A stretch of DNA of 64,000 nucleotides from Pseudomonadota bacterium (GTDB lineage: Bacteria; Pseudomonadota; Gammaproteobacteria; Steroidobacterales; Steroidobacteraceae): assembly GCA_021798335.1 (NCBI GenBank), contig JAJZMI010000050.1, positions 1,273 through 65,272 on the forward strand, in the 5' to 3' direction. The position numbers and the translations under genes are program-made. The notes beneath the pieces are model-generated. The model was not told the origin of the DNA and searched no databases. It was given only the letters and a program-made list of their open reading frames with translations. This document shows, piece by piece, positions 1-41,071 of this stretch. Position 1 is the stretch's first letter. Each line of letters opens with the position of its first letter.

Positions 1-1742
1 GCAAGCGCAACCCGCAGCTCTCGCCGAACGAGCACTGGGTCAGCTACGTCACGGACGGCTCGCTCTACTACGCGCCGGTACACGGCGGGGCCATCCGCCG
101 GGTGGCGGCGCGCCGCAGCGGTGTCCTCGACGGCGAGCTCGACTGGGTATACACGGAAGAACTCGGTCTGCGCTCGGCCTATGCGTGGTCGCCCAACAGC
201 CGCTACATCGCGTTCCTGCAGTTCGACGAACGCCCGGTTCGCACTTTCCCCATCGTCAATTATCTGCGCAGTCCACCGCACATCTACGAGCAGAAGTACC
301 CATCGGCCGGCACTGCGAACCCGATCGTACGGCTGGGAGTGCTCGATATCGCCACCGGCAGGATCGTGTGGACGGCGATGGCCGGCACGCCTGACACCTA
401 TCTGGCCCGCTTCGGCTGGCTACCCGGCGGCACGCGCGTCTACGGCGAGGTATTGAATCGTGCCCAAACGCGATTGCAGCTGCTGATCGCGAACCCGGGC
501 ACGGGCCGATCACGGCCCCTGGTGACCCAGACGGACCCCGATTGGGTCGACGTGCACCGAAGTCCCTATTTCCTGCACAACGGCCGGTTCCTCTGGGGCG
601 GGGAGCAGGACGGTTGGTATCATTTGTATCTGTACGGCCATGGTGGCCGATTGATCCGCAAGCTGACCTGCGGAAATTACAATGTTCTGTCGCTGAATGG
701 AGTGGACGAGAAGCGGGACATGCTGTATTTCAGCCATTACAGCCACGGCCCGCTCGACACGGAGCTGTACCGCGTGTCACTGCACGGCGGAACACCGGTT
801 CCGGTCACGAGGCGCCCCGGCACGCATGCGATCGACATGGGCCCAGGGACGCGCGCGTATCTTGACACGTATTCCAACGTCGTCACACCCCCGTCGTTCA
901 CCGTGGTCGATTTGCACAATGCCCGGCGCACCGTCATTCAGCCAGCCGCGCGCTTGCCGTTTCGATTCCAGAAGCCGCGCTTCATACGCATTACGGCCGC
1001 CAATGGACGCACACGACTGTATGCGCGCCTGACTTTGCCGCCGCACTTCGATCCCCACCGGCGATATCCGGTCATCATGTACCAATACGGGGGCCCGGAT
1101 GTGCCGCCGAGCGTGCGGGATGTCTGGCGAGGAGCCTTCTTCCTGATCAGCCAGCGCATGGCGGAGCGGGGCTTCGTGATGTTCACCACTGACAACAGTG
1201 CCGCCACCTACTTCAGTCATCGCGCCCAGACGCAGGTGAAATTTCACCTCGGCAGGCTCGCGTTGGCCGACCAGCTTGCCGCGGTCAAGTGGCTCAAGCG
1301 TCAACCGTGGGTGAGTAGCGGGCGCATCGGCATCTGGGGCTGGAGTTTCGGCGGCTATATGACCGCATACGCGCTGACCCACGCTCCCCATGTATGGCGA
1401 GCCGGCATCGCGGTGGCGCCGGTGACTCGGTGGCAGGACTACGATACGATCTATACGGAGCGATACATGGGCACGCCGCAGCAGAATCCCGCCGGCTACG
1501 CCGCGAGTTCCGTTGTTGCTGCGGCGCGGCGTCTCGCCGACCCGCTCCTGCTCGTGGCCGGCACCGGCGACGACAACGTGCATTGGCAGAATACCCTGCA
1601 GCTCGTGCAAGCGCTGATCCAGGCGAACAGGCCCTATCAGCTGCTGATTTATCCCAATAAGACTCATGGCATCTCGGGTCCGGCCGCCCGGACCGACTTG
1701 TTCAGCGCGATGGAGCGGTTCTGGGAGCGGAACCTGAAATGA
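1..1742 (+). CDS. Dipeptidyl-peptidase IV-like S9B serine peptidase (N-terminus lies outside the window)
   Basis: Track ORF 102..1742. The same frame stays open back to base 3 (KRNPQLSPNEHWVSYVTDGSLYYAP...). The C-terminal hydrolase part has intact S9 triad contexts GWSFGGY (Ser), GTGDDNVH (Asp) and NKTHGI (His). Confidence 0.85.
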   Translation, partial: KRNPQLSPNEHWVSYVTDGSLYYAPVHGGAIRRVAARRSGVLDGELDWVYTEELGLRSAYAWSPNSRYIAFLQFDERPVRTFPIVNYLRSPPHIYEQKYPSAGTANPIVRLGVLDIATGRIVWTAMAGTPDTYLARFGWLPGGTRVYGEVLNRAQTRLQLLIANPGTGRSRPLVTQTDPDWVDVHRSPYFLHNGRFLWGGEQDGWYHLYLYGHGGRLIRKLTCGNYNVLSLNGVDEKRDMLYFSHYSHGPLDTELYRVSLHGGTPVPVTRRPGTHAIDMGPGTRAYLDTYSNVVTPPSFTVVDLHNARRTVIQPAARLPFRFQKPRFIRITAANGRTRLYARLTLPPHFDPHRRYPVIMYQYGGPDVPPSVRDVWRGAFFLISQRMAERGFVMFTTDNSAATYFSHRAQTQVKFHLGRLALADQLAAVKWLKRQPWVSSGRIGIWGWSFGGYMTAYALTHAPHVWRAGIAVAPVTRWQDYDTIYTERYMGTPQQNPAGYAASSVVAAARRLADPLLLVAGTGDDNVHWQNTLQLVQALIQANRPYQLLIYPNKTHGISGPAARTDLFSAMERFWERNLK

Positions 1743-2012
1743 GCCGGCCGCGAAGGCATTGCCCCGCGACGCGCGGCCTGGATTCCGTGATTCGACGTGA
1801 ATGAGGGTGAGCGCGAAGGGTCAACCGACTCGGTCGCCGCAGTGCGGCCCGAGTGCAGGCGCTGCGCTCGGATGCTCGCGCGAACCTTCTGCCTCGGCCG
1901 CGCGCGATCCGGTGTGGCGATGCGCAATCGGGCAAAGACCCCATTAAGGTAACGTTCATGGCTCTTGTGGTCTCATTGACCCATCAGAGAGTATTCGTCC
2001 GCCGGAGGAGCC

Positions 2013-2141
2013 ATGTTCTTCATGCAGATTTTCTTCGCTGGGGTCCTCGGGTTGGCAAGCCTCGGATCGATTGCGTTCGTCCTGATCAATAACCACTTGC
2101 ACGATAGAGATCCGCAAATGGAGTACCCCGAAGGCGAATGA
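2013..2141 (+). CDS. Possible 42-aa small membrane protein
   Basis: ATG at 2013 preceded by GGAGGAG. It translates to MFFMQIFFAGVLGLASLGSIAFVLINNHLHDRDPQMEYPEGE with one hydrophobic helix. It is below the ORF-track size cut-off and I make no homology claim. Confidence 0.25.
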   Translation: MFFMQIFFAGVLGLASLGSIAFVLINNHLHDRDPQMEYPEGE

Positions 2142-2385
2142 GCAACCGCAGCCGCGGGTACGTTTCGCGCATGCGGATCCCGCCGCATGCGCCGGTCCGC
2201 TGAAGGGAGTGCGCCACGGACTGGCCCACTGCCGGATCAACCGCCCGGCACGCACAGCAGAGGGCAGGGATCGATCTGATCCAGGCACTGCACGCCGTCG
2301 AGCCCCATGCGCCGCTCCTCAGCCAGGCGTCGACGCGCACTGATCACCGCACGATGTGCGTGATACGCGAGTCATCTTGACGGCA

Positions 2386-3468
2386 TCAGGCCGTATCACC
2401 GTAGTGGCGATCTGGGGCTCGCGGCTCGTTCAGAAACCGAACAATGGCGACCACGAAGCTCAGCAGAACGGGACCGAGCACCAGCCCCAGTATTCCAAAT
2501 GCGCTCACGCCACCGATGGCGCCGACGAAGATCGCAAGCGTCGACACCTTGGCGCGATGGGCCGTGAGGAGCGGCCGGACGACATTCTCCACGACGGCGA
2601 GGCCGGCGCCCCAGAAGACAAGGAATATGGCCCAGCCCCAATGGGCCTGGACCAGCAGATACACGACCCCCGGCACCAGAACGACCGTCGCCCCAGCGGG
2701 CAATAGCGCGGCGATCATCGCGAGGACACCGAAGACGAGCGGCGAGGGGAGGCCCGCGAGCGCGAATCCCGCCGCCACGATCAGACCCTGGATGACGGCA
2801 GTCATCGTGGAACCATAGACGACCGCTCGAGTAACGTCCCCGAGATACCGCAGCAGAGGCTCGCGCCGATCGGCGGGGAGGGGTATCAGTCCGGCGATCT
2901 GCTGCAAAAACGACTCACCATCGCGCAGCAGGAAGAACAGCACGAACAGCATCATGAAGAAGCTGATTACTGTTCCGAAAAGGCCGAATGCGACGTTCCC
3001 GCCCGCGGAGGCCGCTGACCTCAGCAACGTCGTGGTTGCGCCGGTGAACCACGCATGGACATCGAAGGTCCGGGCCGGGATATTGCGCGACATCCACGCG
3101 ATCGCCGTGCCGGCCAGCGGCAGGTGCCTGAGGCGCACGATCAAGGCCGGGATGCCGATGAACGGGTGGCGCTGCAGGTAATGAAGCAGGTTGACGGCCT
3201 GCTCGGTGAACACCACCGCCAGAAGAGACAATGGCGCCAGCACGACAAAGGGCGTCGCGACCGTGAGAACGCCGGCCGACACCGCCCGCCGAGCCCTCAG
3301 GCCACCGGCCAGACGCTTGTGAAGGGGATGGAGCAGGAACGCCAACACCATCGCCCAGCCCAACGCATCGTCCAAGGGCACCAGTACCCGCAGCAGCAGG
3401 TAGCCGAGGGACACCACGACCACGACCGCAAACAATCGGCGGTAGAATGGCGAATCCGTCATGATCAT
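2386..3468 (-). CDS. AI-2E family (PerM/UPF0118) transporter
   Basis: 360-aa polytopic membrane protein. The N-terminal and C-terminal helix bundles are typical of the AI-2E family (LVPLDDALGWAMVLAFLLHPLHKRL..., ...PLLTAHRAKVSTLAIFVGAIGGVSAFGILGLVLGPVLL). Confidence 0.85.
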   Translation of the reverse strand: MIMTDSPFYRRLFAVVVVVSLGYLLLRVLVPLDDALGWAMVLAFLLHPLHKRLAGGLRARRAVSAGVLTVATPFVVLAPLSLLAVVFTEQAVNLLHYLQRHPFIGIPALIVRLRHLPLAGTAIAWMSRNIPARTFDVHAWFTGATTTLLRSAASAGGNVAFGLFGTVISFFMMLFVLFFLLRDGESFLQQIAGLIPLPADRREPLLRYLGDVTRAVVYGSTMTAVIQGLIVAAGFALAGLPSPLVFGVLAMIAALLPAGATVVLVPGVVYLLVQAHWGWAIFLVFWGAGLAVVENVVRPLLTAHRAKVSTLAIFVGAIGGVSAFGILGLVLGPVLLSFVVAIVRFLNEPRAPDRHYGDTA

Positions 3469-3492
3469 GGTGATCTCCGATTAGCTGGCGAT

Positions 3493-3996
3493 TCAGCTTC
3501 CGCGATTGCGCCGCAAAGGGCAATGATCGAGAATCTGGCACAGGCGTGAATTGAGGTCGTTCTCTGGGCCGGCGGCTTGATGAGGGAGTTTTCGACCATA
3601 TCCCGGATTCCCACAGGGCAACTGGCAGGATAGCGCACAATTTCCGGTGTGAACCATGACATCAGAGGGTTCGCCGTTGTTCGCGACGTGCGCAGGGACA
3701 TTGAAGTCACCGATGAAGAGGCAGACGATATCGGTGGAGGCGCCGAGGGTGCAGTATCCGCCGGCGCGATCCTTGTGGATCTCGATGATGCGATTGACTT
3801 CTGCGGCGACGGCTCTGGTCTGATGGTGCTCCACAAAAGCGAAGATGTTGCCGAAATGCCTCTTCAGGACGCCGGCGCGGGCGCGCATCGAGGGGATGTG
3901 GCTTCGCAGGGCGGAGATCATCCGGATGCGCAGGAACTTCTCTGCGGCCCCCTGGCAGGTGAAGACCCAGAACCGGGTGCATTCGTCCTCGAGCAC
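3493..3996 (-). CDS. Short endonuclease/exonuclease/phosphatase (EEP)-like protein, possibly degenerate
   Basis: 167 aa with EEP-like motifs in order: WVFTCQG, NIFAFVE, LFIGDFNVP, ILDHCPL. It is much shorter than normal EEP enzymes. It lies 25 nt upstream of, and co-directional with, the AI-2E gene. Confidence 0.3.
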   Translation of the reverse strand: MLEDECTRFWVFTCQGAAEKFLRIRMISALRSHIPSMRARAGVLKRHFGNIFAFVEHHQTRAVAAEVNRIIEIHKDRAGGYCTLGASTDIVCLFIGDFNVPAHVANNGEPSDVMVHTGNCALSCQLPCGNPGYGRKLPHQAAGPENDLNSRLCQILDHCPLRRNRGS

Positions 3997-4041
3997 CCAG
4001 GAGCGATGGAGCGATTCGGCAGACAGTCAGGAGTCACGATC

Positions 4042-4632
4042 ATGCGATATCTGGTGCTACTGGGCGTGGCCGGTGCCGTGGCGGCCCTCGCCACGCTATC
4101 ACGGGCCGCCATCCCTGCTCCCCGTCCGCTGGCGCTCTGGCAGAAGGTGCAGGCATTGCGGAAAGCCCACGCGCTGATGCTCGATAGCGCGGCATATCAG
4201 CCGGGCTCGCGTGCGGTGGACGCCTACACCGTCGATCTGGCCAATGCGCTCGCCAACGACGCGATCCGCACAGCCGGCGGCATCACCAAGGTGCGCCGTT
4301 ATCCCGATGGCGCGCTGGTCGTGAAGGAGAACTTCAACGTACGACGGCAACTGACCGGCATCACGGCCATGCTCAAGCTTCGTGATTATGACGCCGCGGA
4401 CCGCAATTGGGTGATGGCGGCCTACACTCCCGCAAGCAAAGCCATCGCCTACGGCAAAGTTCCCGCCTGCATCGCCTGCCACACGCTGGTATCGAAACAG
4501 GACTTCGTGTTCGCACCGCCGCCGAAGCAGCTGCTCTCCGTGGCCATCTGGAAGGCGTTCTTTCCGAAGCAGCCTGTCACACCCGCATATGCGCAACTGC
4601 TGCGCTGGCATCCCGCGAACGTCGTGAAGTAG
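4042..4632 (+). CDS. Secreted monohaem c-type protein, cytochrome P460-family-like
   Basis: ATG at 4042 with AGGAG 8 nt upstream. It has a signal peptide (MRYLVLLGVAGAVAALATLSRAA) and a single CIACH (CXXCH) site near the C-terminus preceded by DRNWVMAAY. The track ORF start at 3649 is an unsupported N-terminal extension. Confidence 0.6.
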   Translation: MRYLVLLGVAGAVAALATLSRAAIPAPRPLALWQKVQALRKAHALMLDSAAYQPGSRAVDAYTVDLANALANDAIRTAGGITKVRRYPDGALVVKENFNVRRQLTGITAMLKLRDYDAADRNWVMAAYTPASKAIAYGKVPACIACHTLVSKQDFVFAPPPKQLLSVAIWKAFFPKQPVTPAYAQLLRWHPANVVK

Positions 4633-4993
4633 GCGAAGCGAACGCCGCGCAGATTGCGCCCTTCCCGATTCGATGAATCGGGAATTGCGTGGCGAGCCGC
4701 CAGAACCATTCGCCGTTCCTGATCCTCTTGGCTGGTGAAGTCCGGCGCTGGTCTGTGCGGGCCGGACGCGAAGTATCGGCTCGACAGGCCGCGAGTTCGG
4801 TGCGCCAGTGCCCTTTTGCGCCCGTCAGGACCACGATGCTTGCCAATGTGTGATTGGCACGGCCGCGGGAGAACAACCGCGGCATGACCCGTGACGGCGC
4901 GCGCGCACTCTTCCGAGCGCAACCTGTACGCTGGCGCACGGATGAACCGCGTGGATTGCGGCAAGCTTCACCGACTCCCCCGAGGCGGTACCC

Positions 4994-5539
4994 ATGAACA
5001 GCCAAACCACCCTGACCGACACCTCGACATTGCGCGACCGTGCCCGAAAACACATAGACGCCGGCGCGGTGACTTCGGGCTATACGGCTGACCGAGCGGA
5101 AGTGGTGCGCCAGCTCAATGCGGCGCTGGCCACGGAACTGGTATGCGTGCTGCGCTATAGACGCCACCACTTCATGGCCAGGGGCCTCGACGCGAAGAGC
5201 ACAGCCGACGAGTTTCTGGTGCATTCGAACGAGGAGCAGATCCATGCGGATCAGTTGGCGACGCGCATCGTTCAGCTCGGCGGCGAGCCGGATTTCGCGC
5301 CTGACAGTCTGAGCGGTCGCAGTCACGCCGAGTATGTTGCTGGAAACTCGCTGCTGGACATGATCCGCGAAGACCTGATCGCCGAGCGCATCGCCATTGA
5401 CAGTTACCGCGAGCTGATTCAATACCTCGCGGAAAAGGACCCCACCACCAGTCACATGTTGCGCTCGATATTGACCAAGGAAGAGGAGCATGCCGAAGAG
5501 CTCTCCGACCTCCTGGTGAGCCGGCCGGAGCGCCCGTGA
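4994..5539 (+). CDS. Ferritin-like / bacterioferritin-family protein
   Basis: 181 aa with a four-helix ferritin-like pattern (LNAALATELVCVLRYRRHHF..., NEEQIHADQLATRIVQLGG, EDLIAERIAIDSYRELI, KEEEHAEEL). Confidence 0.8.
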   Translation: MNSQTTLTDTSTLRDRARKHIDAGAVTSGYTADRAEVVRQLNAALATELVCVLRYRRHHFMARGLDAKSTADEFLVHSNEEQIHADQLATRIVQLGGEPDFAPDSLSGRSHAEYVAGNSLLDMIREDLIAERIAIDSYRELIQYLAEKDPTTSHMLRSILTKEEEHAEELSDLLVSRPERP

Positions 5540-5958
5540 AAAAGTCCGCGCGCGTCGTTTGGACGGGTGTCATCAAGGAAGGCGGCGGCCTGATCACGAC
5601 TGAGTCCGGCGTGCTCCGTGGCGCACCGTACGGCTTCAACTCACGCTTCGAGGGTGGAAAGGGATCGAACCCCGAGGAGCTGATCGCCGCGGCGCACGCG
5701 AGCTGCTTTTCAATGGCGCTTGCCCTGACGCTGGACGAGGCGGGCCTCACGCCCACGCGCATTACGACCGATGCCGAGATCACACTCGAGAAGGGCCCGG
5801 TCGGCTACGACATCACCGGCAGTCACCTGACCGTGGTGGCCGAGGTACCCGGCGCAGACCCGGCGCAGTTCGAGGCTCTCGCCCAGAAGACCAAATCCGG
5901 CTGCCCGGTCTCCAAAGTGCTGCGTGCGCCGATCACGATGACAGCCAGACTCGCATGA
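5536..5958 (+). CDS. osmC: OsmC family peroxiredoxin
   Basis: 140 aa. GSNPEELIAAAHASCFSMAL and GCPVSKVL carry the two conserved OsmC cysteines. A 4-nt overlap with the ferritin-like gene suggests an operon. Confidence 0.9.
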   Translation: MKKSARVVWTGVIKEGGGLITTESGVLRGAPYGFNSRFEGGKGSNPEELIAAAHASCFSMALALTLDEAGLTPTRITTDAEITLEKGPVGYDITGSHLTVVAEVPGADPAQFEALAQKTKSGCPVSKVLRAPITMTARLA

Positions 5959-6463
5959 CCGAGCCCTGCCGCAGGGCATCCGTCCACACAGTGCCTCGTC
6001 ATCCGCGCCGTTGGCCCTCTCTGCACTCCGAACCACCGGGATGACAGGCAGAAAAAGGATGTTCTTGAACAGGACCGGACTGACCATGGGAACACCTTGT
6101 CCTCAAGGATAGGCGACGCCGTTATCATCGGTGCAATGTTCACCCTGTCGGCGGCACGAGGAGGATGCGACTCCGAGCTGCTGCGTGACGCCGAGGATAC
6201 TTTCTGACACCCCTTCGGCTGTGATGCTGCGCGGCATGATCGACAAGTTCCAGGTGATCGCGCACGGCTCGGGAGCGATCGATAAGAGATGCCGTATCGA
6301 GCAGTACTTCGGCCTGAGCCCCGAGGAACTGCGCCGCGCGTTGCCGAGGGATCGTAGCAAGCGCACCTGCATGATCGCCGGCATGCGCGACCTCTCCCGC
6401 ATCGACCGCTACGGCGCCGTGTACCCCGCTCGGGTTCAATAGGGCCGGTCTCGTGAGCCGCCG

Positions 6464-7174
6464 TCAGTTTCGCATCAGCCGATCCGTTTCCTTTTTGACC
6501 ACGGTATAGCATTCACAGCAAAGAGTCTCCAGCCGCGGCCGGTCAAGCACCGTGATTTGCCCACGCTGGTAGTGTATGACGCCGAGCCGCTGCAGCTTTC
6601 CCGCGGCATCCGTGACGCCCTCACGCCGTACACCGAGCATGTTGGCAATCAATTCCTGCGTCATATTCAACTGATTCGACGGTAATCGATCGAGCGACAG
6701 CAATATCCAGCGGCACAGCTGCTGGTGGACCGTGTGATGCCGATTGCACACGACAGTCTGCGCCATCTGAGTGATGAGGGCTTGTGTGTAACGCAGAAGC
6801 AGTCCTTGCAGCGTGTCGTTGCTGTGAAATTCCTCCTTGAGTCGGGGACCCGGCAGGCGATACGCATGTCCTGCGCTCTGCACAAGCGCGCGGTTGGGCG
6901 TCGTCTCTCCACCCATGAACAGCGGAATGCCGACCAGCCCATCATTGCCCACGACGGCAATCTCCGCGGATGAGCCGTCCAGAAGCACATACAGAAGCGA
7001 GATGATGCAATCGACCGGAAAGTACACATGGCGAAGTGCCTCCCCGGACTCGTAGAGCACGGTGCCGAGCGGCAGCTCGATGCGCTCCAGATGCGGCAAC
7101 AGCCTGACCATGGAGCCCGCAGCGAGCGTCCTGAGAAGGTGATTCTCGGTTGGAAACCGCGTTGCACTCATCAA
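6464..7174 (-). CDS. Crp/Fnr family transcriptional regulator
   Basis: 236 aa with a cNMP-binding-like N-domain (LYESGEALRHVYFPVDCIISLLYVL) and a C-terminal HTH (TQELIANMLGVRREGVTDAAGKLQRLGVI). Confidence 0.85.
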   Translation of the reverse strand: MMSATRFPTENHLLRTLAAGSMVRLLPHLERIELPLGTVLYESGEALRHVYFPVDCIISLLYVLLDGSSAEIAVVGNDGLVGIPLFMGGETTPNRALVQSAGHAYRLPGPRLKEEFHSNDTLQGLLLRYTQALITQMAQTVVCNRHHTVHQQLCRWILLSLDRLPSNQLNMTQELIANMLGVRREGVTDAAGKLQRLGVIHYQRGQITVLDRPRLETLCCECYTVVKKETDRLMRN

Positions 7175-7785
7175 GCAGCCGGTGTCGCCTTCATCTGACT
7201 CATCGCAATCACTCCGACCAGGAATCCTCCGCCGTCAGGATCCCGGCACGCCGAAGCATGCACGCAGCGAGGGTCGCCGTCCGGCGCCGACTGCAGGCGA
7301 AGGTCGGCGAATGCAGTGGCGGCGCCCTCGGCAACTCGCGCGAGCATCGCGCGCAGGGACGGCACAGCCTCCGGGGTGAGAAAACCCTCCAACGACTGGC
7401 CGCGCAACGAGTCAGGCTCCGACCCAAGCAGGGTCGCACCCGTCCGGTTCAGTTCGAGAAGCGCCGCGTTGCCGTCCACCACGAAATGACCAACCGGGGC
7501 GTAGTCGTAGAGTTTAATTTGACGGTTAAGCGCGTTCTCGAGCTCAACGCGCGAGCGCCGCAGCTCCTCCTCCTGCAGGTCCACTTCCACCTGGTGGACC
7601 TGTAGCTCATGGAGCAACGCGAGCGCTTTGGAGGCGGTCGTCGGCGAGGAAGCGAACTCGTAAAGCACGCGCAGCGCGGCCAATGGGTCGGCGCATGCCT
7701 GAGCGTCGGGTCCCCTCAAGTGAGCGACTGCGCGCGAACGCAGGGTATCCGTCCGGCTCCGCTTGTGAGCAACTGTCGTCATCAT
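7171..7785 (-). CDS. PAS-domain protein with N-terminal coiled coil
   Basis: It has the LHELQVHQVEVDLQEEELRRSRVELE coiled coil typical of PAS S-box sensors, followed by a PAS-like core (YDYAPVGHFVVDGNAALLELNRTGATLLG). A 4-nt overlap links it to the downstream Crp/Fnr gene. Confidence 0.65.
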   Translation of the reverse strand: MMTTVAHKRSRTDTLRSRAVAHLRGPDAQACADPLAALRVLYEFASSPTTASKALALLHELQVHQVEVDLQEEELRRSRVELENALNRQIKLYDYAPVGHFVVDGNAALLELNRTGATLLGSEPDSLRGQSLEGFLTPEAVPSLRAMLARVAEGAATAFADLRLQSAPDGDPRCVHASACRDPDGGGFLVGVIAMSQMKATPAA

Positions 7786-8525
7786 GTCACCTCGTTGAGC
7801 GTGCGGTACCGGCGCCCTTGCTTGTGGTGACAGTCTACCTTTTTATTCGCAGCGTTTTGAAGAGGTCGAGCCGACATTCACAGTGACTTCGGCGGCGATC
7901 GTGCACGTGCCGCGCCCGTCGCTCTTGGGATGACCGCACCGGACCGCCAGCGATGGGCATTGCATCCGGGACCCGGTGGGCCTCCGGGCGGCCCGATCTC
8001 CGGCTGCAAGGGAGGCAGGTTCGCCGCGTTCCTCTATGAGCTCGCGCGCGCCCGGATGGAGGGGTTCGGGGTCGAAAAAGACTCGAATTCCCAGTCGTCT
8101 GCGCCAGCTCACTCGTCGTATTCCTGGCAGTCGGGTACGGCAGGACTGATTTGCCCTGCTCTGGGGCTCCCGGTGCGGCGGGGAGTGGAACTCGCGCCTG
8201 GCTCCACTCCGCCAGGCGCTCTCGATGCGCACCTCGGTCCGGCACGAGCGGACCAGCGACGGGGCCGAAGGAGTCAGTCGCACCGTCACACTCATCAAGC
8301 GCCATGCCGGCGGAAAGCGCAATCCCGAGCCGTCCCTGACATTTTCTGTCTCCCGGTCGGCGACTTCGATATCCCTGCACCGGCTTCGGGCACTTTACGA
8401 ACACTCCGCTGGCGCACGAGACAGCAACTCACCTCTTATCCCCGAAGGTACGGTTGAAATGGGGGGATCCGACGGAACGTGGCGCCATCTCGAGCGCGAG
8501 CGTCTGGAGGCGCCGATGAGCGCCG

Positions 8526-31765: not shown

Positions 31766-33136
31766 ATGCGTGAGATCAATGAGTTGACGCCGGACCAGGA
31801 GGTCCAGCTAAAACGGGAAGCCGATCACTGGTTGGCCAACGGCAGGTCCGTCGAACCGTTGGATCGCAAAAGGGCCGCCGACGCGATTTGCGCGCTGTAC
31901 GCGGCCGTAAGGCGTCCCACACCGGCTGTGCTGTTCTTCTCTTCTCCCGCCAGGTGCATCTTGGCGCTGCGCGCGATGATCAAGCTCGGGACCGAGCGAC
32001 GTTTGCTGTGTGACTCGAGTCTGGAATTGCAATTGCAAGAGCAGCTGAGAGCACAACCGATTCCGAAAGGATGGTTGCAGCGCCAGAGGCAGGCCGCCGC
32101 GTCGATCGGGCTGCGGATCGAGTCGCAGCGGCGGTTAGGAACCTGGGCGCAGATCTGGGATGAATCCAGCACTCACTTCGGGTCACGAATCGATTCCCGG
32201 ATTGGTCCCTCGCTTTGGGTGCAGCTTGACTGCGCGCTGCGCTCGATGCTGTGGGAGCAGTTACGGTCCAGACTCTGGCGGTCAGTGCACAGAAAGCTCA
32301 ACGAGCAATTCCGGGAACCCGTAAGACAAGTACTTGAAACAGACTCCATGTCGCGGTCCATCCGATATGGGGAGGACCCACGCGACCTGAGACAAAGACT
32401 GCTCGACGTCAGGTATCAGGAATCTCACCTGGATCAGATTAAACTCGAGATCGGCATGCCCGGAGTTGAGGGTGTGCCGCGCGGCCTGAAGGCGGATATC
32501 TGGGAGCACTGCATGGGCGCCTGGTGGTGCGCTTCCGCGGTGTTCTATGACTTTTGCGCTCGCATCGGTATTTCGTACGCCCCCGAGCAAACGCGGATTC
32601 TTCGACTGTGGCTTGACCAGTGCCGCTATAGTCACTGGTGGTTCGAGTGCGATGGCATTGTGTTCGTGTCCCATCGCCCAACGGTACTGAAACTGGATTC
32701 TGGGGGCAGGTTGCACAACGAGCGCGGCGCCGCCCTCGAGTATGGGGACGGATTCCGGCTGTGTGCGATTCATGGCGTACAGGTCGAAGAGGATGATGTT
32801 CTGCATCCAGAGCGTATTACGGTCCGCCGAGTCGAGCAGGAGCGCAATGTCGAGTTGCGACGCGCCCTGACGTCGTTCTACGGACAGGCGCGGTACCTGA
32901 AAGACTCCGGAGCCACCCTCGTGCACCAAGATGAACGAGGGAAACTCTGGCGAAAGAAGCGGGAGGGAGATACCGATCTCGTCATGGTAGAGGTGACAAA
33001 TTCGACCCCGGAACCCAACGGGAACGCCCGGCCATACCTGCTGCGGGTCCCGCCCGACATGAAGACGGCCGCGGAGGCGGTCGCATGGACATTCAGCATG
33101 CGGTCGGACCAATACAACCCGGATATCGAGACGTAA
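31766..33136 (+). CDS. Hypothetical 456-aa Trp/Cys-rich protein (resembles the family I recall as DUF6745; unverified)
   Basis: ATG at 31766, one nucleotide after the TGA of the upstream gene. Conserved-looking blocks are GAWWCASAVFYDF, WWFECDGIVFVSHRP, LHNERGAALEYGDGF, VEQERNVELRRAL, VTNSTPEPNGNARPYLLRVPPDMKTAAEAVAWTF. The track start at 31481 overlaps the upstream gene. Confidence 0.6.
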   Translation: MREINELTPDQEVQLKREADHWLANGRSVEPLDRKRAADAICALYAAVRRPTPAVLFFSSPARCILALRAMIKLGTERRLLCDSSLELQLQEQLRAQPIPKGWLQRQRQAAASIGLRIESQRRLGTWAQIWDESSTHFGSRIDSRIGPSLWVQLDCALRSMLWEQLRSRLWRSVHRKLNEQFREPVRQVLETDSMSRSIRYGEDPRDLRQRLLDVRYQESHLDQIKLEIGMPGVEGVPRGLKADIWEHCMGAWWCASAVFYDFCARIGISYAPEQTRILRLWLDQCRYSHWWFECDGIVFVSHRPTVLKLDSGGRLHNERGAALEYGDGFRLCAIHGVQVEEDDVLHPERITVRRVEQERNVELRRALTSFYGQARYLKDSGATLVHQDERGKLWRKKREGDTDLVMVEVTNSTPEPNGNARPYLLRVPPDMKTAAEAVAWTFSMRSDQYNPDIET

Positions 33137-33214
33137 TTGAAGTCGTTTCCCCAGGACACACATCGCCCGCGAGAGATCGCCACCGGACAGACGGTCATTC
33201 CAAAGTCGTTGCTT
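33133..33214. repeat. Two Tn7-end-type (TnsB-site-like) motifs in left-end orientation
   Basis: GTAATTGAAGTCGTTTCCCC (33133-33152) matches the reverse complement of the terminal site of the glmS-proximal right end (GTAATTAAAGTCGTATCCTC) at 17 of 20 positions. A second copy is TCATTCCAAAGTCGTTGCTT (33195-33214). No TGT terminus precedes them. Confidence 0.45.
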
Positions 33215-33887: not shown

Positions 33888-35171
33888 ATGTCCTGGGATG
33901 GAATCGTCTTCATCCACCTGCCTGATCAGAGCGAGGCGGTTCCGGCGGGAAGAATCTCGCTGCTGGAGGAGGGGCTCCAGTCCATAGGTAGCACCTTCGG
34001 TTACGGTGCCCGATATCTGAAGCGGCCCAACGCGATACCCGTCGACCCTGTAAGTCTACCGCTGTCGAGCTTATCCGGCGAGGAGCAGCTTTATGAGCCG
34101 CCCGCCGGCCTCGCTCTGTTCGGTGCGATTCGTGATGCCACCCCCGATTTATGGGGTCGGCGTGTCATCGAAGCGAAGTTGAAGGTGCCGCCCAACTCTG
34201 TTCCGGAATCGACTTATCTCCTCAACGCCGGCACCCATCGCTTCGGTGCTCTGGATTTCCGAGAGAGCATCCGCTCCGCGAGCGCCGCGGGCTTGCTGCC
34301 ACCGCTTAACGACCTTCAGTACCTGTTGGAAGCCGCGGATCGCGTGCAACAAGGTCTGCCGATACCGACCCGACTGGAAATGCTCTTTCAGGTAGCCAGC
34401 CTGGGTGGGGCGCGGCCGAAAGCACTTGTGTCACATGATGGCAGGCAATTTCTCGCGAAATTCCCGGCCAAGAACGACCCATTCGACATCCCGGCCGTCG
34501 AGCGCGCCTGCCTGGAACTTGCGCGCGCGTCTGGACTGAATGTGCCGCAGACCGATCTGGTACGACTCGCAGACGGTCGGAATGTAATGCTGATCGAGCG
34601 ATTCGACCGGGCCGTTCTGCCAGATGGCAGCTTCTCCCGGAAGCACTGCGTAAGTGCTCTGACCCTGCTTGGCAAACACGAGCAGGAGTCCCCGGCCTCC
34701 AGTTACTCCGAGATCGCCCAGGTGATTTCCGATCGTGGAGTGTCCGGACACGTGCAAGAGGACCGTGCGGAGCTGTATGCGAGAGTTGCGTTCAATATCC
34801 TCATTTCGAATGACGACGACCACCTGCGAAATCACGCATTCATATGGCACCCGCCGGGCAAGGCTTGGCGACTGAGTCCGCTGTACGACGTGGTTCCCCG
34901 CCCGCAAGTATTCCACGAGCGACGATTGCATCTGTCGGTCGGCCCCCAAGGCAGGAACGCCACGCTCACAAACCTGTTCGAGGCACGCGGAAGTTTCGGC
35001 TTGCTGAAACCCGACGCAATCGCAATCATCGAGAGGGTCTCTGCGGCGGCGCGAGAATGGCGCACACACTTGGAATCGGCGGGTGTGAGCCCTGCGCAAT
35101 GCGACCTCGTTCAAAGTGCATTCCGTAGACCACAAGATATCGGTCTCGACGAGATAACGAAGACGCGGTAG
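33888..35171 (+). CDS. hipA: Type II toxin HipA-family Ser/Thr kinase
   Basis: 427 aa with HipA N-domain motifs (DATPDLWGRRVIE), LGGARPKALV, and the kinase core ILISNDDDHLRNHAFIW. Confidence 0.9.
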   Translation: MSWDGIVFIHLPDQSEAVPAGRISLLEEGLQSIGSTFGYGARYLKRPNAIPVDPVSLPLSSLSGEEQLYEPPAGLALFGAIRDATPDLWGRRVIEAKLKVPPNSVPESTYLLNAGTHRFGALDFRESIRSASAAGLLPPLNDLQYLLEAADRVQQGLPIPTRLEMLFQVASLGGARPKALVSHDGRQFLAKFPAKNDPFDIPAVERACLELARASGLNVPQTDLVRLADGRNVMLIERFDRAVLPDGSFSRKHCVSALTLLGKHEQESPASSYSEIAQVISDRGVSGHVQEDRAELYARVAFNILISNDDDHLRNHAFIWHPPGKAWRLSPLYDVVPRPQVFHERRLHLSVGPQGRNATLTNLFEARGSFGLLKPDAIAIIERVSAAAREWRTHLESAGVSPAQCDLVQSAFRRPQDIGLDEITKTR

Positions 35172-35902: not shown

Positions 35903-36181
35903 GACGTCGATTCCTTCCGAACTGTTCCATTCAAATGAGAATGAATTCCCCATCGCGCGGCCGAGTCGCCCCGATCAGTCCGTAGTGCCTGACGCGTGTC
36001 AGACTTTCCTAGCCCGTCAACCGGGGGCGCGGGAGCCGGACGCCGGTCTGGAAGCCCACCGCAGGCTATCACCCCCGGGAGCAGCGGTGCAAATTATTCG
36101 CTTCTTGTACACACGTTGCAGATTCCGGGGAGGCCGCGCGCGTGCAGAATTTTCCCTCCCCCGGGCGTTCACCTCGGAGGT

Positions 36182-36302
36182 AAGGAGTTTAATCCCCAGA
36201 AGAGGACTTTAATGTCCAGGTAACGGCTCCGATTCGAGCACGCAGTCGCATCCCCGGGAAGCGACTTTGATTCTGGGGTAACGACTTTGATTCGGCCCCA
36301 CA
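36182..36302. repeat. Internal Tn7-like right end: array of TnsB-site-like repeats ending in ...CCACA
   Basis: Direct repeats GGAGTTTAATCC, GGACTTTAATGTCC, ACGGCTCCGATTCG, GCGACTTTGATTCT and ACGACTTTGATTCGG, followed by the terminus CCCCACA at 36296-36302. The motif and orientation match the glmS-proximal end at 39145-39213. Confidence 0.6.
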
Positions 36303-36346
36303 AATGTCCGTATCTAAAGCTGGTAACGGCCATTAAAGTCATGTAG

Positions 36347-36405
36347 AGCTGTCTAAGAGAGTAGACTCCGGGTGAAACCCCCGGAGTCTACTCTCTTAGA
36401 CAGCT
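36347..36405. repeat. Perfect 26-bp inverted repeat with a 7-nt loop
   Basis: AGCTGTCTAAGAGAGTAGACTCCGGG (36347-36372), TGAAACC, CCCGGAGTCTACTCTCTTAGACAGCT (36380-36405). The right arm is the first readable part of the IS701-like remnant. Confidence 0.95.
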
Positions 36406-36875
36406 GGCTGTGGGATAAGCACAGCCCCACTGCTCACTGTTGGCATTTGATTGTGAGACGGGAGTTGAATTCTCCGGGTACCCTCAAATTCAGCTTGAGC
36501 AACGCTTCGGCCAAGACGAGCATGACCAAGTTGGCGCAGATGCAAGCACAACGCTTCTGGATCGAGCGCGCCTTCCAGGACGCCAAGAGCCATATCGGAA
36601 TGGCGCAATATCAAGCAAGACAATGGCCCTCCTGGCATCGTCACATGGCCCTGGTGATGATGGCGATGCTATTCATGTTGCAGGCGCGACTCAAACACAT
36701 CGATACCCACCCGTTGCTCAGCTGCTACGACATCCAGATCTTGCTCGCCACCACGTTGCCGGACCGACGTAGCAGCCAGGAAGAAGTGATGAGGCAGCTG
36801 CGAACTCGACACGAAAAACGCCAGGCCCTAATCGAAGCGGCGAACCGCAGATCAAAACGCAACTCATTGATATGA
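36372..36875 (+). pseudogene. IS701-family-like transposase, C-terminal remnant only
   Basis: QRFWIERAFQDAKSHIGMAQYQARQWPSWHRHMALVMMAMLFML is the typical C-terminal DDE block of IS701/IS4-type transposases. The N-terminal two thirds are missing. Confidence 0.65.
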
Positions 36876-36876
36876 C

Positions 36877-36954
36877 TGTGATTCAAAGTGACGGAGTAGA
36901 ATTAGTAACCGACAGGTCATAGCCGAAACGCGACGAACTCAGATTCAAAAGAGG
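36877..36954. repeat. Possible Tn7-like left-end fragment (TGTG + three degenerate sites)
   Basis: TGTGATTCAAAGTGACGGA (36877-36895), TAGAATTAGTAACCGAC (36897-36913) and CAGATTCAAAAGAGG (36940-36954) are the complement-orientation version of the CGACTTTGATTC motif. Spacing to the TGT differs from the right ends. Confidence 0.35.
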
Positions 36955-37814: not shown

Positions 37815-38900
37815 CTAGTGTAGTGCTTCATTCTGTTTGGAACTTAAGCGGCTATTTGCACGAATGACCTTTTGCAAGATATCGCGAGCGCTCTTGGTCC
37901 AAATGAATGGCTTGGGATTGGTATTGTGATGCGCGATGTAGTCATCGATGGCGGCGACCAATTCGGGCACGCTCGTGAACACACCGCGGCGCAGCCGTTC
38001 CACCGTGATGTCCCGAAAGAACCGCTCAACCATGTTCAACCACGAGGCCGAGGTCGGCGTGAAGTGCATGTGGATACGCGGTCGTTTCGCAAGCCACCGC
38101 TGCACGGCCGGATGCTTGTGGGTAGCGTAATTGTCGGCGATCAAATGCAATTCCTTGTCCGCCGGCGTTTCACGCTCGATCTGGCGCAGGAACTTCAGCC
38201 ACTCGATGTGGCGATGCCGCTGCTGACATTGGGCAATCACCTGTCCGTCGAGGACGTTGAGCGCCGCGAACAACGTGGTCGTCCCGTTGCGCTTGTAATC
38301 GTGCGTCATCGTCGCCGCGCGTCCCTTCTTCATCGGCAACCCAGGTTGCGTGCGATCCAGCGCCTGTACTTGACTCTTCTCATCACAGCACAAGACCAAC
38401 GCGTGATCCGGCGGGGACATGTACAGGCCGACGATGTCCTCGAGCTTCTCTACAAACTGCGGATCACGCGAGACCTTGAAGCCTCGCACCCGATGCGGCT
38501 TCAGCCCGTGCTGGCGCCACACCCGCAGCACCGTGGTGTCGCTGACGCCCACCTGCGCCGCCATCGAGCGCGTGCTCCATTGCGTGGCGTTGGCAGGCAA
38601 AGTCTGCGTCGTCAGTCGCACGATCTGCGCCGCGTCAACCTTCACCGGTCGCCCGCCGCGCGGCAAATCCTGCTCAATCGCCGCCAAGCCGCCCTCGATA
38701 TAGCGATTGCGCCAGCGTCCGACTTGAACACGACCAACGCCCACCTGGGCGGCAATCGTATGGTTGTCCAACCCGTCCGCCGCACCCAGTACGATCTGCG
38801 CGCGGCGCGCCAATCGAACACTGACCGTCTTGGATCGAGCCAGCTGCAGCAACTTCGCTCGCTCCTCGTTCAACAACACAATCTCCGCCGCTTTGCGCAT
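37815..38900 (-). CDS. IS630-family DDE transposase
   Basis: 361 aa with N-terminal HTH domains and a DDE core ([14 protein letters not shown]...[13 protein letters not shown]...[13 protein letters not shown]). Confidence 0.9.
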
Positions 38901-38981
38901 CGCTCGTTCCCCATTGATCGCCTCAATGGTAAGACAGGAATTGCGCTGATCGGCTCCGTTAATTATGAAGCACTACACTAG
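37815..38981 (-). mobile_element. Intact IS630-family insertion sequence
   Basis: Perfect 17-bp terminal inverted repeats CTAGTGTAGTGCTTCAT (37815-37831) and ATGAAGCACTACACTAG (38965-38981), each containing a TA (the IS630/Tc1 target). A single uninterrupted 361-aa transposase ORF lies inside. Confidence 0.9.
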
Positions 38982-39144: not shown

Positions 39145-39213
39145 ACAGGAAACGACTCTATTCCACAGGAACCAACTTTATTCCCGAGGATACGACTTTA
39201 ATTACATGCCACA
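39145..39213. repeat. Tn7-like right end abutting attTn7 (glmS 3' end)
   Basis: Three contiguous 20-21-bp direct repeats: ACAGGAAACGACTCTATTCC (39145-39164), ACAGGAACCAACTTTATTCC (39165-39184) and CGAGGATACGACTTTAATTAC (39185-39205). The terminal octamer is ATGCCACA (39206-39213), which reads TGTGGCAT from outside. Exactly 25 nt (39214-39238) separate the terminus from the glmS stop codon. Confidence 0.7.
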
Positions 39214-39238
39214 TTAATGTCCGTTTCTAAAAGCCCGC

Positions 39239-41071
39239 TCACTCCACCGTCACGCTCTTGGCGAGATTGCGCGGCTGATCGACGTCCGTGCCCTTCATGA
39301 TGGCGACGTGATAGGCGAGCAGCTGCAGGGGTATGGTGTACACGATGGGCGATTGGAAATAGCTCACGTGTCTGGGCATCTCGATGACGGTAACACCGTC
39401 GCTCGGCTGCAACCCCGATTCCGGATCGGCGAAGACGATGAGCTCGCCGCCGCGCGCCCGCACCTCCATCAGATTCGACTTCAGCTTTTCCAACAGGTCG
39501 TTGTTGGGTGCCACGGCAACCACGGGCATATCCGCGTCCACGAGCGCGAGCGGACCGTGCTTGAGCTCGCCGGCCGGATAGCTCTCGGCATGAATGTAGG
39601 AGATCTCCTTGAGCTTCAGTGCCCCTTCCATCGCGATGGGATACAGGCCACCGCGACCGAGGAACAAGGTGTGGTGCTTGTCGGCGAAGCGCTCGGCGAG
39701 TTTGTGGATGACGGGATCGAGCGTGAGCGCCTTCTCGACGAGCGCAGGCAGTTCCACCAGCCGCGTGACCAGACCCCGCTCGCGCTCGGCGTCGGCGCCC
39801 TGATGGCGGGCGAGGGCGATGGTCAGCATGGCGAGCGCGGTCAGCTGGGTCGTGAATGCCTTGGTCGAGGCGACGCCGATCTCGGGGCCGGCGCGCGTCA
39901 GCATCACCAGCTCCGACTCGCGCACCAGGGAGCTTTCCGGAGCGTTGCAGATGGCAAGCTGGGATAGATAACCCGATTGCCGGGCAAGGCGCAGCGCCGC
40001 CAGCGTATCGGCCGTCTCGCCGGACTGCGAGATCGTGACGAACAGCGAGTCGGGCGGCACCAGCGGATTGCGGTAGCGGTATTCGCTGGCGATGTCGACT
40101 GCACACGGAAGGCGGCAGATCTGCTCGATGAAATAGCGCACCACGGAAGCGGCATGATAGCTGGTGCCGCACGCGACGATGTGCACGCACCGCACACGCT
40201 TGAAGACCTCGGTGGCGGCCGGGCCGAACGCGGCCTCCAGCAGGCGGCCGTGGGCGACGCGCTCGGCGAGTGTGTCCGCGATGGCGCGCGGCTGCTCGTG
40301 GATTTCCTTGAGCATGAAATGGCGGTATGGACCCTTTTCCGCCGGATCGGCGCTGAGGTCACTTTCCCGAACCGGCCGCTCCGCAGCGCCGCCCTTGCGG
40401 TCGACGATGCGCACGCTGGTGCGCCGGATCTCGGCGACATCCCCCTCCTCGAGAAACATGAAGCGCCGCGTCACGGGCAACAGCGCTGCAACGTCGGAGG
40501 CGACGAAATTCTCCTCGACACCGAGGCCGATGACCACGGGGCACCCCTGGCGCGCCACGACCAGTCGCTGCGGGTCGTGGTCACTGATCACGGCGAGCGC
40601 ATAGGCACCTTGCAGCTCGGCGACGGTGGCTCGCACTGCTTCGAACAGATCCCGCAGGGTGTTCAAATGAAGATGAATGCGGTGCGCCACCACTTCGGTA
40701 TCGGTCTCCGAAGTGAACCGATAGCCGCGCTTCTCCAGATCGGCCCGGAGTGCTTCGTGGTTTTCGATGATGCCGTTGTGCACGACGGCTAATCCGTCCT
40801 GCGAGACGTGAGGATGCGCATTGCGCTCGCTGGGCACGCCATGTGTCGCCCAGCGCGTATGCGCAATCCCGGTGCCGCCGCCGATAGGCGTCGCGGCCAA
40901 GGCTTGCTCGAGCATTTTGACCTTGCCGACGGTACGCATGCGGGCCAACCTGCCCGAATGAATGACCGCCAGACCCGCGGAGTCGTAACCCCGATACTCG
41001 AGCCGCCGCAACCCTTCAATCAGCACCGGGACGATATTGCGCTCGGCGATTGCTCCGACGATTCCGCACAT
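39239..41071 (-). CDS. glmS: Glutamine--fructose-6-phosphate aminotransferase
   Basis: 610 aa. It starts [12 protein letters not shown] (N-terminal Cys nucleophile), has two SIS domains, and ends ...[15 protein letters not shown]. Confidence 0.97.

What the first reader, a model, noticed from the sequence alone, without database searches (positions are those of the whole stretch)
36182..36320. Second, internal Tn7-like right end followed by a near-copy of the attTn7 flank
A second array of the same motif (…GCGACTTTGATTCT GGGGTAACGACTTTGATTCGG CCCCACA) ends at 36302 in the same orientation as the glmS-proximal end.

The 18 nt after it, AATGTCCGTATCTAAAGC (36303-36320), match the true glmS flank AATGTCCGTTTCTAAAAGC (39216-39234) except for one substitution and one indel. 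A simple second insertion at the same att position would leave only a 5-bp duplication.

Retention of about 18 bp of flank points to one of three things: serial occupancy with rearrangement, recombination between elements, or import of an end plus flank from another genome.
Basis: seen in the sequence. Interest (0 to 1): 0.6.

Follow-up and report, generated by a model that had tools for sequence, protein, structure and literature searches.

The report
Layered Tn7-like transposon stubs beside glmS
The repeated 18 bases are the normal 5-base insertion footprint plus the cut-off tip of a second kind of Tn7-like transposon, so this is a four-layer stack of dead transposons at the classic Tn7 landing site, not a copied piece of chromosome.

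Summary
A Tn7-like right-end array ends at 36302. The next 18 nt match the sequence beside glmS (39216-39234), far above chance, and occur nowhere else in the genome.

The interpretation needs correcting. Only AAAGC (36316-36320 and 39230-39234) is chromosomal. It is an ordinary 5-bp target duplication.

The other 13-16 nt (TAGATACGGACATT inside, TAGAAACGGACATTAA beside glmS) are the first bases of a second family of Tn7-like ends, here called "Z-type". Whole Z-type ends start 8-10 nt after the glmS stop in three relatives. A Z-type left end starts exactly at 36321.

The "T-type" ends (TGT termini: the inner array and the glmS-proximal one) land 22-25 nt after the stop, as Tn7 does in E. coli. 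When a Z element is resident they therefore cut its terminal transposase-binding site and leave a 14-17-nt stub. One relative (G017) still holds both halves of such a split end.

The simplest history is Z1, then T (inner), then Z2, then T (outer). Later deletions and IS insertions followed. No transposition genes remain in this MAG.

Stacked Tn7-like remnants are a known kind of island, and this scan noted such stacks at other genes. The two insertion registers and the TGG/TAG termini are modestly new.

The parts
33134..33214 (+). Probable left end of the inner T-type element. Two left-orientation sites: TAATTGAAGTCGTTTCC at 33134 and a second near 33198. The terminal ~9 nt is not TGT-like and is overlapped by the stop of the DUF6745 gene.
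33888..35171 (+). hipA-like kinase gene, cargo of the inner T-type element
   Evidence: HipA_C, 5.5e-48
36179..36302 (-). Right end of the inner T-type element (R_I). Five ~20-bp spaced sites. Terminus read inward: TGTGGGGCCGAATCAAAGTCGTTACC.
36303..36316 (-). Stub of the first Z-type right end (Z1): TAGATACGGACATT, positions 1-14 of the Z terminus, cut by insertion of R_I
   Evidence: 12/14 identical to G188 L and G107 R; 3-5/14 to the window's and G017's T-type termini
36316..36320 (.). AAAGC: distal copy of the 5-bp target duplication of the second Z-type element (Z2).
   Evidence: identical 5-mer at 39230-39234
36321..36345 (+). Left end of Z2: TGGTAACGGCCATTAAAGTCATGTA. Only the terminal site survives.
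   Evidence: 24/28 identical to G089 L end, 23/28 to G188 L end, 14/28 to R_O
36347..36405 (.). Perfect 26-bp fold-back palindrome. One arm equals the last ~30 nt of a group II intron plus ~10 nt of its 3' exon. It marks the rearrangement that removed the rest of Z2 and the outer element's left end.
   Evidence: RF00029, 55.5 bits, on the G092 copy
36405..36907 (+). 3' remnant of an IS701-like element. Homology to full copies runs to 36907, so TGTG at 36877 is IS sequence, not a Tn7-like end.
37815..38981 (-). IS630-family insertion sequence with 17-bp perfect terminal inverted repeats and an intact DDE_3 transposase
39148..39213 (-). Right end of the outer T-type element (R_O). Terminus read inward: TGTGGCATGTAATTAAAGTCGTATCC. 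The same terminus occurs in MAG DX2.bin59 (L066); G072:C91 has a near-identical end.
39214..39229 (-). Stub of the Z2 right end: TAGAAACGGACATTAA, positions 1-16 of the Z terminus, cut by insertion of R_O
   Evidence: 15/16 identical to G188 L and G107 R
39230..39234 (.). AAAGC: glmS-proximal copy of the Z2 target duplication
39235..39238 (.). CCGC: the only other native bases between the transposon layers and the glmS stop
39239..41071 (-). glmS. Its 3' end is the presumed recognition site for the target selectors.
   Evidence: SIS and GATase domains

Best explanation
Two families of Tn7-like elements home to glmS in this genus but insert in different registers.

- Z-type elements have termini TGG/TAG-AAACGGACA(A/T)TAAAGTC and insert 8-10 nt after the stop codon.
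- T-type elements have TGT termini and AATTAAAGTCGTTACC sites. They insert 22-25 nt after the stop, as Tn7 does.

A T-type element arriving at a site that already holds a Z element therefore lands 14-17 nt inside the Z right end. It splits the terminal transposase-binding site and leaves a short stub beside glmS.

Read outward from glmS, the window shows: stop, GCGG, [GCTTT], Z2 stub (16 nt), R_O ... Z2 left end, [GCTT(T)], Z1 stub (14 nt), R_I ... . The bracketed pentamer is the ordinary 5-bp duplication made by Z2.

The only order that fits is Z1, then the inner T element, then Z2, then the outer T element.

Later events removed the outer element's left end, the rest of both Z right ends, and all transposition genes. 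The traces of those events are an IS701-like remnant, a fold-back palindrome and an IS630 copy.

Shown: the sequence identities, the registers, the duplication, and the split end in a relative.

Inferred: the order of events, that distinct TnsD/TniQ selectors set the registers, and the deletions.
For: 1. Z-type ends are real transposon ends. G188 holds a complete 4.5-kb mini-element. Its right end starts 8 nt after the glmS stop and has five sites. Its left end, TGGAAACGGACATTAAAGTC, has three sites, and TTAC repeats flank the element. Unsplit right ends occur in G107 at +8 and in L288 at about +10. A left end occurs in G089.

2. The window's outer 'flank' is 15/16 identical to these termini and the inner one 12/14. 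The end at 36321 is 24/28 and 23/28 identical to the Z left ends but only 11-17/28 to T-type ends. The Z-terminus pattern has 2 matches in the window against 0.07 expected.

3. In nine stub-bearing att sites, the 8-9 nt next to the stop are unrelated while the following 14-17 nt are conserved. That is expected for a mobile terminus, not for flank.

4. G017 keeps both halves. The stub lies beside glmS, a 9.5-kb T-type element follows, and immediately after its left terminus comes AATGAAGTCTTGATTTCGACAAATGG...GACCAATAGTCC. That sequence is positions 12 onward of the G107 Z right end.

5. T-type ends sit 23-25 nt after the stop even where no Z stub is present (L063, G058, G047, G016). Tn7 in E. 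coli sits at 25 nt.

6. AAAGC flanks Z2 on both sides.

7. Canonical T|T tandem junctions have 4-6 nt spacers.
Against: - No autonomous Z- or T-type element with tnsABC and tniQ was found. None is in the MAG. None lies next to T/Z ends in relatives. None lies at eight TniQ loci of the genus. The selectors and their registers are therefore inferred.
- Z right termini read TAG and left termini TGG, not the canonical TGT, so activity of these ends is unproven.
- The inner duplication copy is one T short.
- The predicted leftovers are missing from the window and the MAG: the outer element's left end and the remainders of the Z1 and Z2 right ends. Deletions must be assumed.
- In G017 the presumptive 5-bp duplication at the split is imperfect (GATTG against AATGA).
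Confidence: 0.72

Rival explanations
1. The structural reading (Z stubs, T ends) is the same, but the layers did not all accumulate in this lineage. An already layered block, running from the glmS 3' end through the stub to a T element, was imported from another strain by homologous recombination anchored in glmS. Alternatively, unequal exchange between the related T-type ends built the array.
For: The two stubs differ at one position. Nearly the same R_O-type end sits in Z stubs in G072:C91 and, with an identical terminus, in a distant MAG (L066), so these modules travel. G058 and G016 carry internal copies of the glmS 3' end (58 and ~34 nt), which shows that other integration or recombination events happen at this site in the genus.
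Against: The Z2 left end abuts AAAGC exactly, and the same pentamer abuts the Z2 stub. That is what in-situ transposition predicts and what recombination does not require. No glmS fragment lies inside the window's array.
Confidence: 0.12
2. One reading: the 18 nt are a retained or imported copy of genuine chromosomal attTn7 flank, produced by rearrangement, inter-element recombination or import of an end plus flank.
For: The 18-mer lies directly between an end and the next element, and it resembles the sequence beside glmS.
Against: The same sequence is the terminus of left ends that lie kilobases from glmS (G188, G089, window 36321). It continues into full multi-site right ends in G107, G188 and L288. 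About 25 relatives with other or empty flanks lack it. The truly adjacent 8-9 nt are not conserved.
Confidence: 0.06
3. A single aberrant transposition of the 2.9-kb segment 36321-39213, with its two ends joined about 19-21 bp apart, gave an unusually long target duplication that has since diverged.
For: Imperfect direct repeats flank a segment that has a left-type and a right-type end.
Against: The two ends belong to different families. The repeat would need at least 3 later changes in 21 nt, including AA against TG at its edge. The repeated sequence is itself a transposon terminus. No Tn7-like element is known to make such duplications (established knowledge of Tn7 and Mu 5-bp staggers).
Confidence: 0.02
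4. Assembly artefact: the MAG contig joins two strains' versions of the locus.
For: The genome is a MAG, 80% complete, with 235 contigs. Reads could not be examined.
Against: The shared stretches are 9 nt or less of exact identity, far below assembler k-mers. The junction sequence is unique in the genome. The architecture obeys transposition rules (exact termini, 5-bp repeat), which a chimera would not produce.
Confidence: 0.03

Closest known systems
Tn7 at attTn7 downstream of glmS in E. coli (TnsABC+TnsD pathway)
   Same: The right end faces glmS. The T-type end lies 25 nt after the stop, exactly as Tn7 does in E. coli FDAARGOS_536. The ends are arrays of ~20-bp repeats with an AAAGTC core. 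The Z terminus is 15/20 identical to the Tn7 right terminus TGTGGGCGGACAATAAAGTC, by my count from the termini. The target duplication is 5 bp.
   Different: No tnsA, tnsB, tnsC or tnsD genes are present. The elements are small cargo-only or decayed units. Z-type ends insert at +8 to +10 and start with TGG/TAG instead of TGT.
Genomic islands built from several Tn7-like insertions at one attachment site. Examples: inactive glmS insertions and Tn6022/AbaR diversification in Acinetobacter baumannii (PMC11014353), and attTn7 islands described by Parks and Peters (cited from memory).
   Same: Repeated use of one att site, most copies inactive (PMC11014353 reports 54/203 genomes with glmS insertions, fewer than half predicted functional), with IS-mediated scrambling.
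   Different: Here two families with different insertion registers alternate, so that one family truncates the other's terminal binding site. I did not find that described in the papers read.
Canonical tandem Tn7-like junctions (right end, about 5 bp, left end)
   Same: The Z2 left end, AAAGC, Z1 right terminus is exactly this kind of junction. So are the T|T junctions in L065-L068.
   Different: In the window the older right end had already been cut down to 14 nt by an intervening T-type insertion. That makes the junction look like 18 nt of 'flank'.

Membership tests
Tn7-like transposon ends (T-type: R_I and R_O) | Terminal 5'-TGT...ACA-3' followed at fixed spacing by several directly repeated ~20-bp transposase-binding sites | tested here: met
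   TGTGGGGCC... and TGTGGCATG..., with AAAGTC ending at position 20 and 3-5 sites at ~20-bp period
Tn7-like transposon ends (T-type: R_I and R_O) | Right end facing glmS at a fixed distance (about 23-25 bp) from the stop codon | tested here: met
   25 nt for R_O. 23 nt reconstructed for R_I. 22-25 nt in 11 other att sites. Tn7 control is 25 nt.
Tn7-like transposon ends (T-type: R_I and R_O) | Encodes or is accompanied by TnsA/TnsB/TnsC and a TniQ/TnsD selector | tested here: not met
   No TnsA_N, TniQ or Mu-transpos_C hit in the MAG and none among window ORFs. These are non-autonomous or decayed. A Mu-transposase-type gene lies near a similar end in Aquabacterium L067.
Tn7-like transposon ends (T-type: R_I and R_O) | 5-bp target-site duplication | tested here: inconclusive
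   The left end of O is deleted and the left terminus of I is overwritten. Related T|T junctions show 4-6 nt.
Tn7-like transposon ends (Z-type: 36321-36345 and the two stubs) | Inverted terminal repeats with multiple internal sites, bounding a discrete element with a short duplication | tested here: met
   The G188 4.5-kb element has a left end with 3 sites, a right end with 5 sites, and TTAC flanking repeats. The window's Z2 is flanked by AAAGC on both sides.
Tn7-like transposon ends (Z-type: 36321-36345 and the two stubs) | Canonical TGT/ACA termini | tested here: not met
   Left ends start TGG (window, G089, G188). Right ends start TAG (11 cases) or TGG (G188). TG/CA is kept only in the TGG form.
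Tn7-like transposon ends (Z-type: 36321-36345 and the two stubs) | Site- and orientation-specific insertion next to glmS | tested here: met
   The right terminus lies 8-10 nt after the stop in G107, G188, L288 and all nine stub-bearing sites.
   It is absent from about 25 other glmS flanks of the genus. It is present as the terminus of left ends far from glmS.

The most novel reading that the evidence does not exclude
The register difference may be functional. By inserting 14-17 nt inside a resident Z-type right end, T-type elements cut off the rival's cleavage site and terminal binding site. This would immobilise the rival and push its remaining sites away from attTn7. That could in turn remove Z-type target immunity and reopen the site to a new Z element, which would explain the strict Z, T, Z, T alternation. 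In short, it would be interference competition between transposon lineages for one landing site, together with a Tn7-like lineage that works with TGG/TAG rather than TGT termini.
Probability: 0.15. Interest if true: 0.6.

Novelty: new variant of a known kind. Interest (0 to 1): 0.35.

Why it matters
It gives a rule for reading the debris at attTn7. Conserved sequence between glmS and a Tn7-like end may be the beheaded tip of an older element from a different family, not chromosomal flank. Mistaking it for flank would misplace insertion points and att-site definitions.

Eight of the twelve glmS-adjacent T-type ends examined in this group sit in such stubs, so the pattern is common here. If the two families really use different insertion offsets and lack cross-immunity, these ends offer a natural system for studying competition between site-specific transposons. 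They would also show how far the end sequence of a Tn7-like element can depart from TGT.

Tried and rejected
1. My first models assumed the 18 nt were real flank: one-ended transposition plus homologous recombination, homology-facilitated illegitimate recombination, an adjacent deletion from a second glmS copy, or a long aberrant duplication. I dropped them once G107, G188 and G089 showed that the sequence is a transposon terminus.

2. Homology to full IS701-like copies in G092 and G017 runs through it to 36907.

3. I considered that the motif might be a conserved chromosomal flank of a subclade. That is rejected because the adjacent 8-9 nt are not conserved and the motif occurs at left ends away from glmS.

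4. Searches for autonomous partners found none:
- TnsA_N in the genus.
- TniQ in the genus, plus eight fetched regions, with no T or Z sites.
- ORFs beside T/Z ends in G017, G024, G089 and L288.
- TniQ in five genomes holding T-type ends.

5. The genome-contig scan for the Z terminus returned 120 hits. Almost all were coding noise such as ATP synthase, and only G089's own record was real.

6. Two metagenome scans, one for the predicted ancestral junction and one for the Z right end, found nothing.

7. A 13-mer search with one mismatch across the genus was no better than its control.

9. Rfam hits on the palindrome are sub-threshold miRNA hairpin artefacts.

Full report
**Observation**

The window is part of a 2.49-Mb MAG (80% complete, 235 contigs). 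Record titles of relatives place it among Gammaproteobacteria, and one member of the genus is labelled Steroidobacteraceae. glmS is at 39239-41071 on the minus strand.

- An array of ~20-bp repeats with an AAAGTC core ends in CCCCACA at 36302. It has the same orientation as the array that ends at 39213 beside glmS.
- 36303-36320 (AATGTCCGTATCTAAAGC) matches 39216-39234 (AATGTCCGTTTCTAAAAGC) with one substitution and one indel.

The match is far above chance:
- The degenerate 18-mer has 2 matches against 0.00 expected.
- The local alignment scores 44 against a shuffle maximum of 29, with 0 of 1000 shuffles reaching it.
- The sequence occurs nowhere else in the MAG.

**What a normal tandem junction looks like**

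A pattern search of the genome collection for "right end, spacer, left end" found four clean junctions of related elements (L065-L068). Their spacers are 4-6 nt (GCTGG, ACAAAT, ATACC, TTAT).

**Surroundings**

No transposition genes occur in the window or anywhere in the MAG.

Left of 36302 lie hipA (33888-35171) and left-orientation sites at 33134 and about 33198.

Between 36321 and 39213 lie:
- a 25-nt left end;
- a perfect 26-bp palindrome (36347-36405);
- the 3' part of an IS701-like element (36405-36907);
- a 152-aa ORF;
- an intact IS630 (37815-38981, with 17-bp perfect inverted repeats);
- the glmS-proximal right end.

Homology to full IS701-like copies runs to 36907.

**The turning point**

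I first treated the 18-mer as flank, because a TAGAAA.GGACA motif lies between the glmS stop and the TGT terminus in every relative with such an end (G072 twice, G066, G017, G024), while about 25 other relatives have unrelated flanks.

In G107, however, the same motif continues as TAGAAACGGACAATAAAGTCATGATTTCGACAAATAGTC..., a full array of sites that starts 8 nt after the stop.

A search of the genus for AACGGNCANTAAAGTC then found the same sequence as the terminus of left ends far from glmS: G089 (TGGAAACGGCCAATAAAGTCATGTAACG) and G188 (TGGAAACGGACATTAAAGTCGTG).

G188 carries a complete 4.5-kb element:
- its right end starts 8 nt after the glmS stop and has five sites;
- its left end has three sites;
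- TTAC repeats flank it.

A further unsplit right end, at about +10, is in MAG L288. I call these Z-type ends and the TGT-ended ones T-type.

**Identities**

| Window sequence | Against Z-type termini | Against T-type termini |
|---|---|---|
| Outer "flank" TAGAAACGGACATTAA | 15/16 (G188 left, G107 right) | 5-10/16 |
| Inner TAGATACGGACATT | 12/14 | 3-8/14 |
| End at 36321, TGGTAACGGCCATTAAAGTCATGTAGAG | 24/28 (G089), 23/28 (G188) | 14/28 (R_O) |

The Z-terminus pattern has 2 matches in the window, exactly these places, against 0.07 expected.

The Z terminus is also 15/20 identical to the Tn7 right terminus. I verified that terminus in 114 E. coli genomes, where it lies 25 nt after glmS and is followed by tnsA, tnsB and tnsC.

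**Registers**

Z-type termini lie 8-10 nt after the stop in every case. Those 8-9 nt are unrelated between genomes, whereas the next 14-17 nt are conserved.

T-type termini lie 22-25 nt after the stop whether a Z stub is present or not. Sites without a stub are L063, G058, G047 and G016.

A T-type element entering a site that holds a Z element must therefore cut the Z right end 14-17 nt from its tip.

G017 shows this directly:
- the stub lies beside glmS;
- a 9.5-kb T-type element carrying hipA follows;
- immediately after its left terminus (...CATGCCCACA) comes AATGAAGTCTTGATTTCGACAAATGGTGTTTCC...GACCAATAGTCCTTCC. This is positions 12 onward of the G107 Z right end.

MAG DX2.bin59 (L066) has the same R_O terminus as the window. 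There it sits in a 16-nt Z stub 8 nt after the stop, with an intact T-type left end and a normal 6-nt spacer to an older T-type end.

**Reading the window**

Outward from glmS the order is:
1. TGA stop
2. GCGG
3. GCTTT
4. Z2 stub, TAGAAACGGACATTAA
5. R_O
6. cargo and IS debris
7. Z2 left end
8. GCTT(T)
9. Z1 stub, TAGATACGGACATT
10. R_I
11. hipBA region

The pentamer (AAAGC on the plus strand, 36316-36320 and 39230-39234) abuts both ends of Z2. It is the ordinary 5-bp duplication.

The 18-mer is that pentamer plus a 13-14-nt stub. The substitution is a difference between two independent Z termini.

R_I could only have entered Z1 at 23 nt from the stop while Z1 was next to glmS. The order is therefore Z1, inner T, Z2, outer T.

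The following are absent from the window and the MAG:
- the outer element's left end;
- the remainders of both Z right ends;
- the inner element's left terminus.

I infer deletions. The fold-back palindrome and the truncated IS are their visible traces.

**Limits**

- No autonomous Z- or T-type element was found, so the selectors and their offsets are inferred from positions alone.
- Z ends begin with TGG or TAG, not TGT.
- Import of layered blocks by recombination is possible. G058 and G016 carry internal glmS 3' fragments, which shows other events at this site.
- Read mapping was unavailable.

**Comparison and novelty**

Stacks of inactive Tn7-like elements at one att site are known. PMC11014353 reports glmS insertions in 54 of 203 A. 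baumannii genomes, fewer than half predicted functional, and it discusses target immunity. This scan has also noted stacks beside nrdJ and rpsR.

In the papers read I did not find two glmS-homing families with different registers, one of which repeatedly beheads the other, nor TGG/TAG termini.

The finding is therefore an ordinary process with a modestly new twist.

Noticed in passing
L038 (G058:C13) about 7.0 kb downstream of glmS; L041 (G016:C53) about 5.1 kb downstream: Internal partial copies of the glmS 3' end lie inside the glmS-linked islands. G058 has 58 nt including the stop, 97% identical to the window's glmS end. G016 has about 34 nt. Neither is bounded by Tn7-like ends, so another integration route, an integrase or illegitimate recombination, also uses this site.
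   Followed up: partly
window 36347-36405; L062 (G092:C49) 1501-1586: One arm of the perfect 26-bp palindrome is 98% identical to the last ~30 nt of a group II intron (RF00029, 55.5 bits, in G092) plus about 10 nt of its 3' exon. The window holds only this tip, as an exact fold-back abutting the truncated IS701-like element.
   Followed up: partly
window 36877-36907: TGTGATTCAAAGTGACGGAGTAGAATTAGTA, proposed earlier as a Tn7-like left end, is conserved terminal sequence of the IS701-like element in G092:C50 and G017:C78.
   Followed up: yes
window 33125-33152: The first left-end site of the hipBA element starts inside the stop codon region of the DUF6745 gene (ORF ends 33136). The expected TGT terminus is replaced by coding sequence, so the left boundary of the inner element has been overwritten.
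   Followed up: partly
L129 (G089:C43) 851-8300: G089 has another mixed stack. A Z-type left end is followed 7.3 kb later by a T-type right end, then TTAT, then a T-type left end. No transposition genes lie in 18 kb. Cargo includes an M20 peptidase, a Sel1-repeat protein and DDE_Tnp_1 IS copies.
   Followed up: partly
window 3536-3710: Weak left-orientation end-like sites (GAATTGAGGTCGTTCTC at 3548; TGCGCAGGGACATTGAAGTC at 3689) lie next to the AI-2E transporter gene. In G017 that gene borders the glmS island. This may be the far edge of the ~36-kb island.
   Followed up: no
window 37815-38981: An intact IS630-family element has 17-bp perfect inverted repeats (CTAGTGTAGTGCTTCAT) and a 361-aa DDE_3 transposase. 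It is probably the only element in the stack that is still mobile.
   Followed up: partly
L035 (G017) 3920-5140 and window 33888-35171: Both T-type elements, in G017 and the inner one here, carry a hipA toxin-kinase gene near the right end. This suggests a shared cargo module.
   Followed up: no
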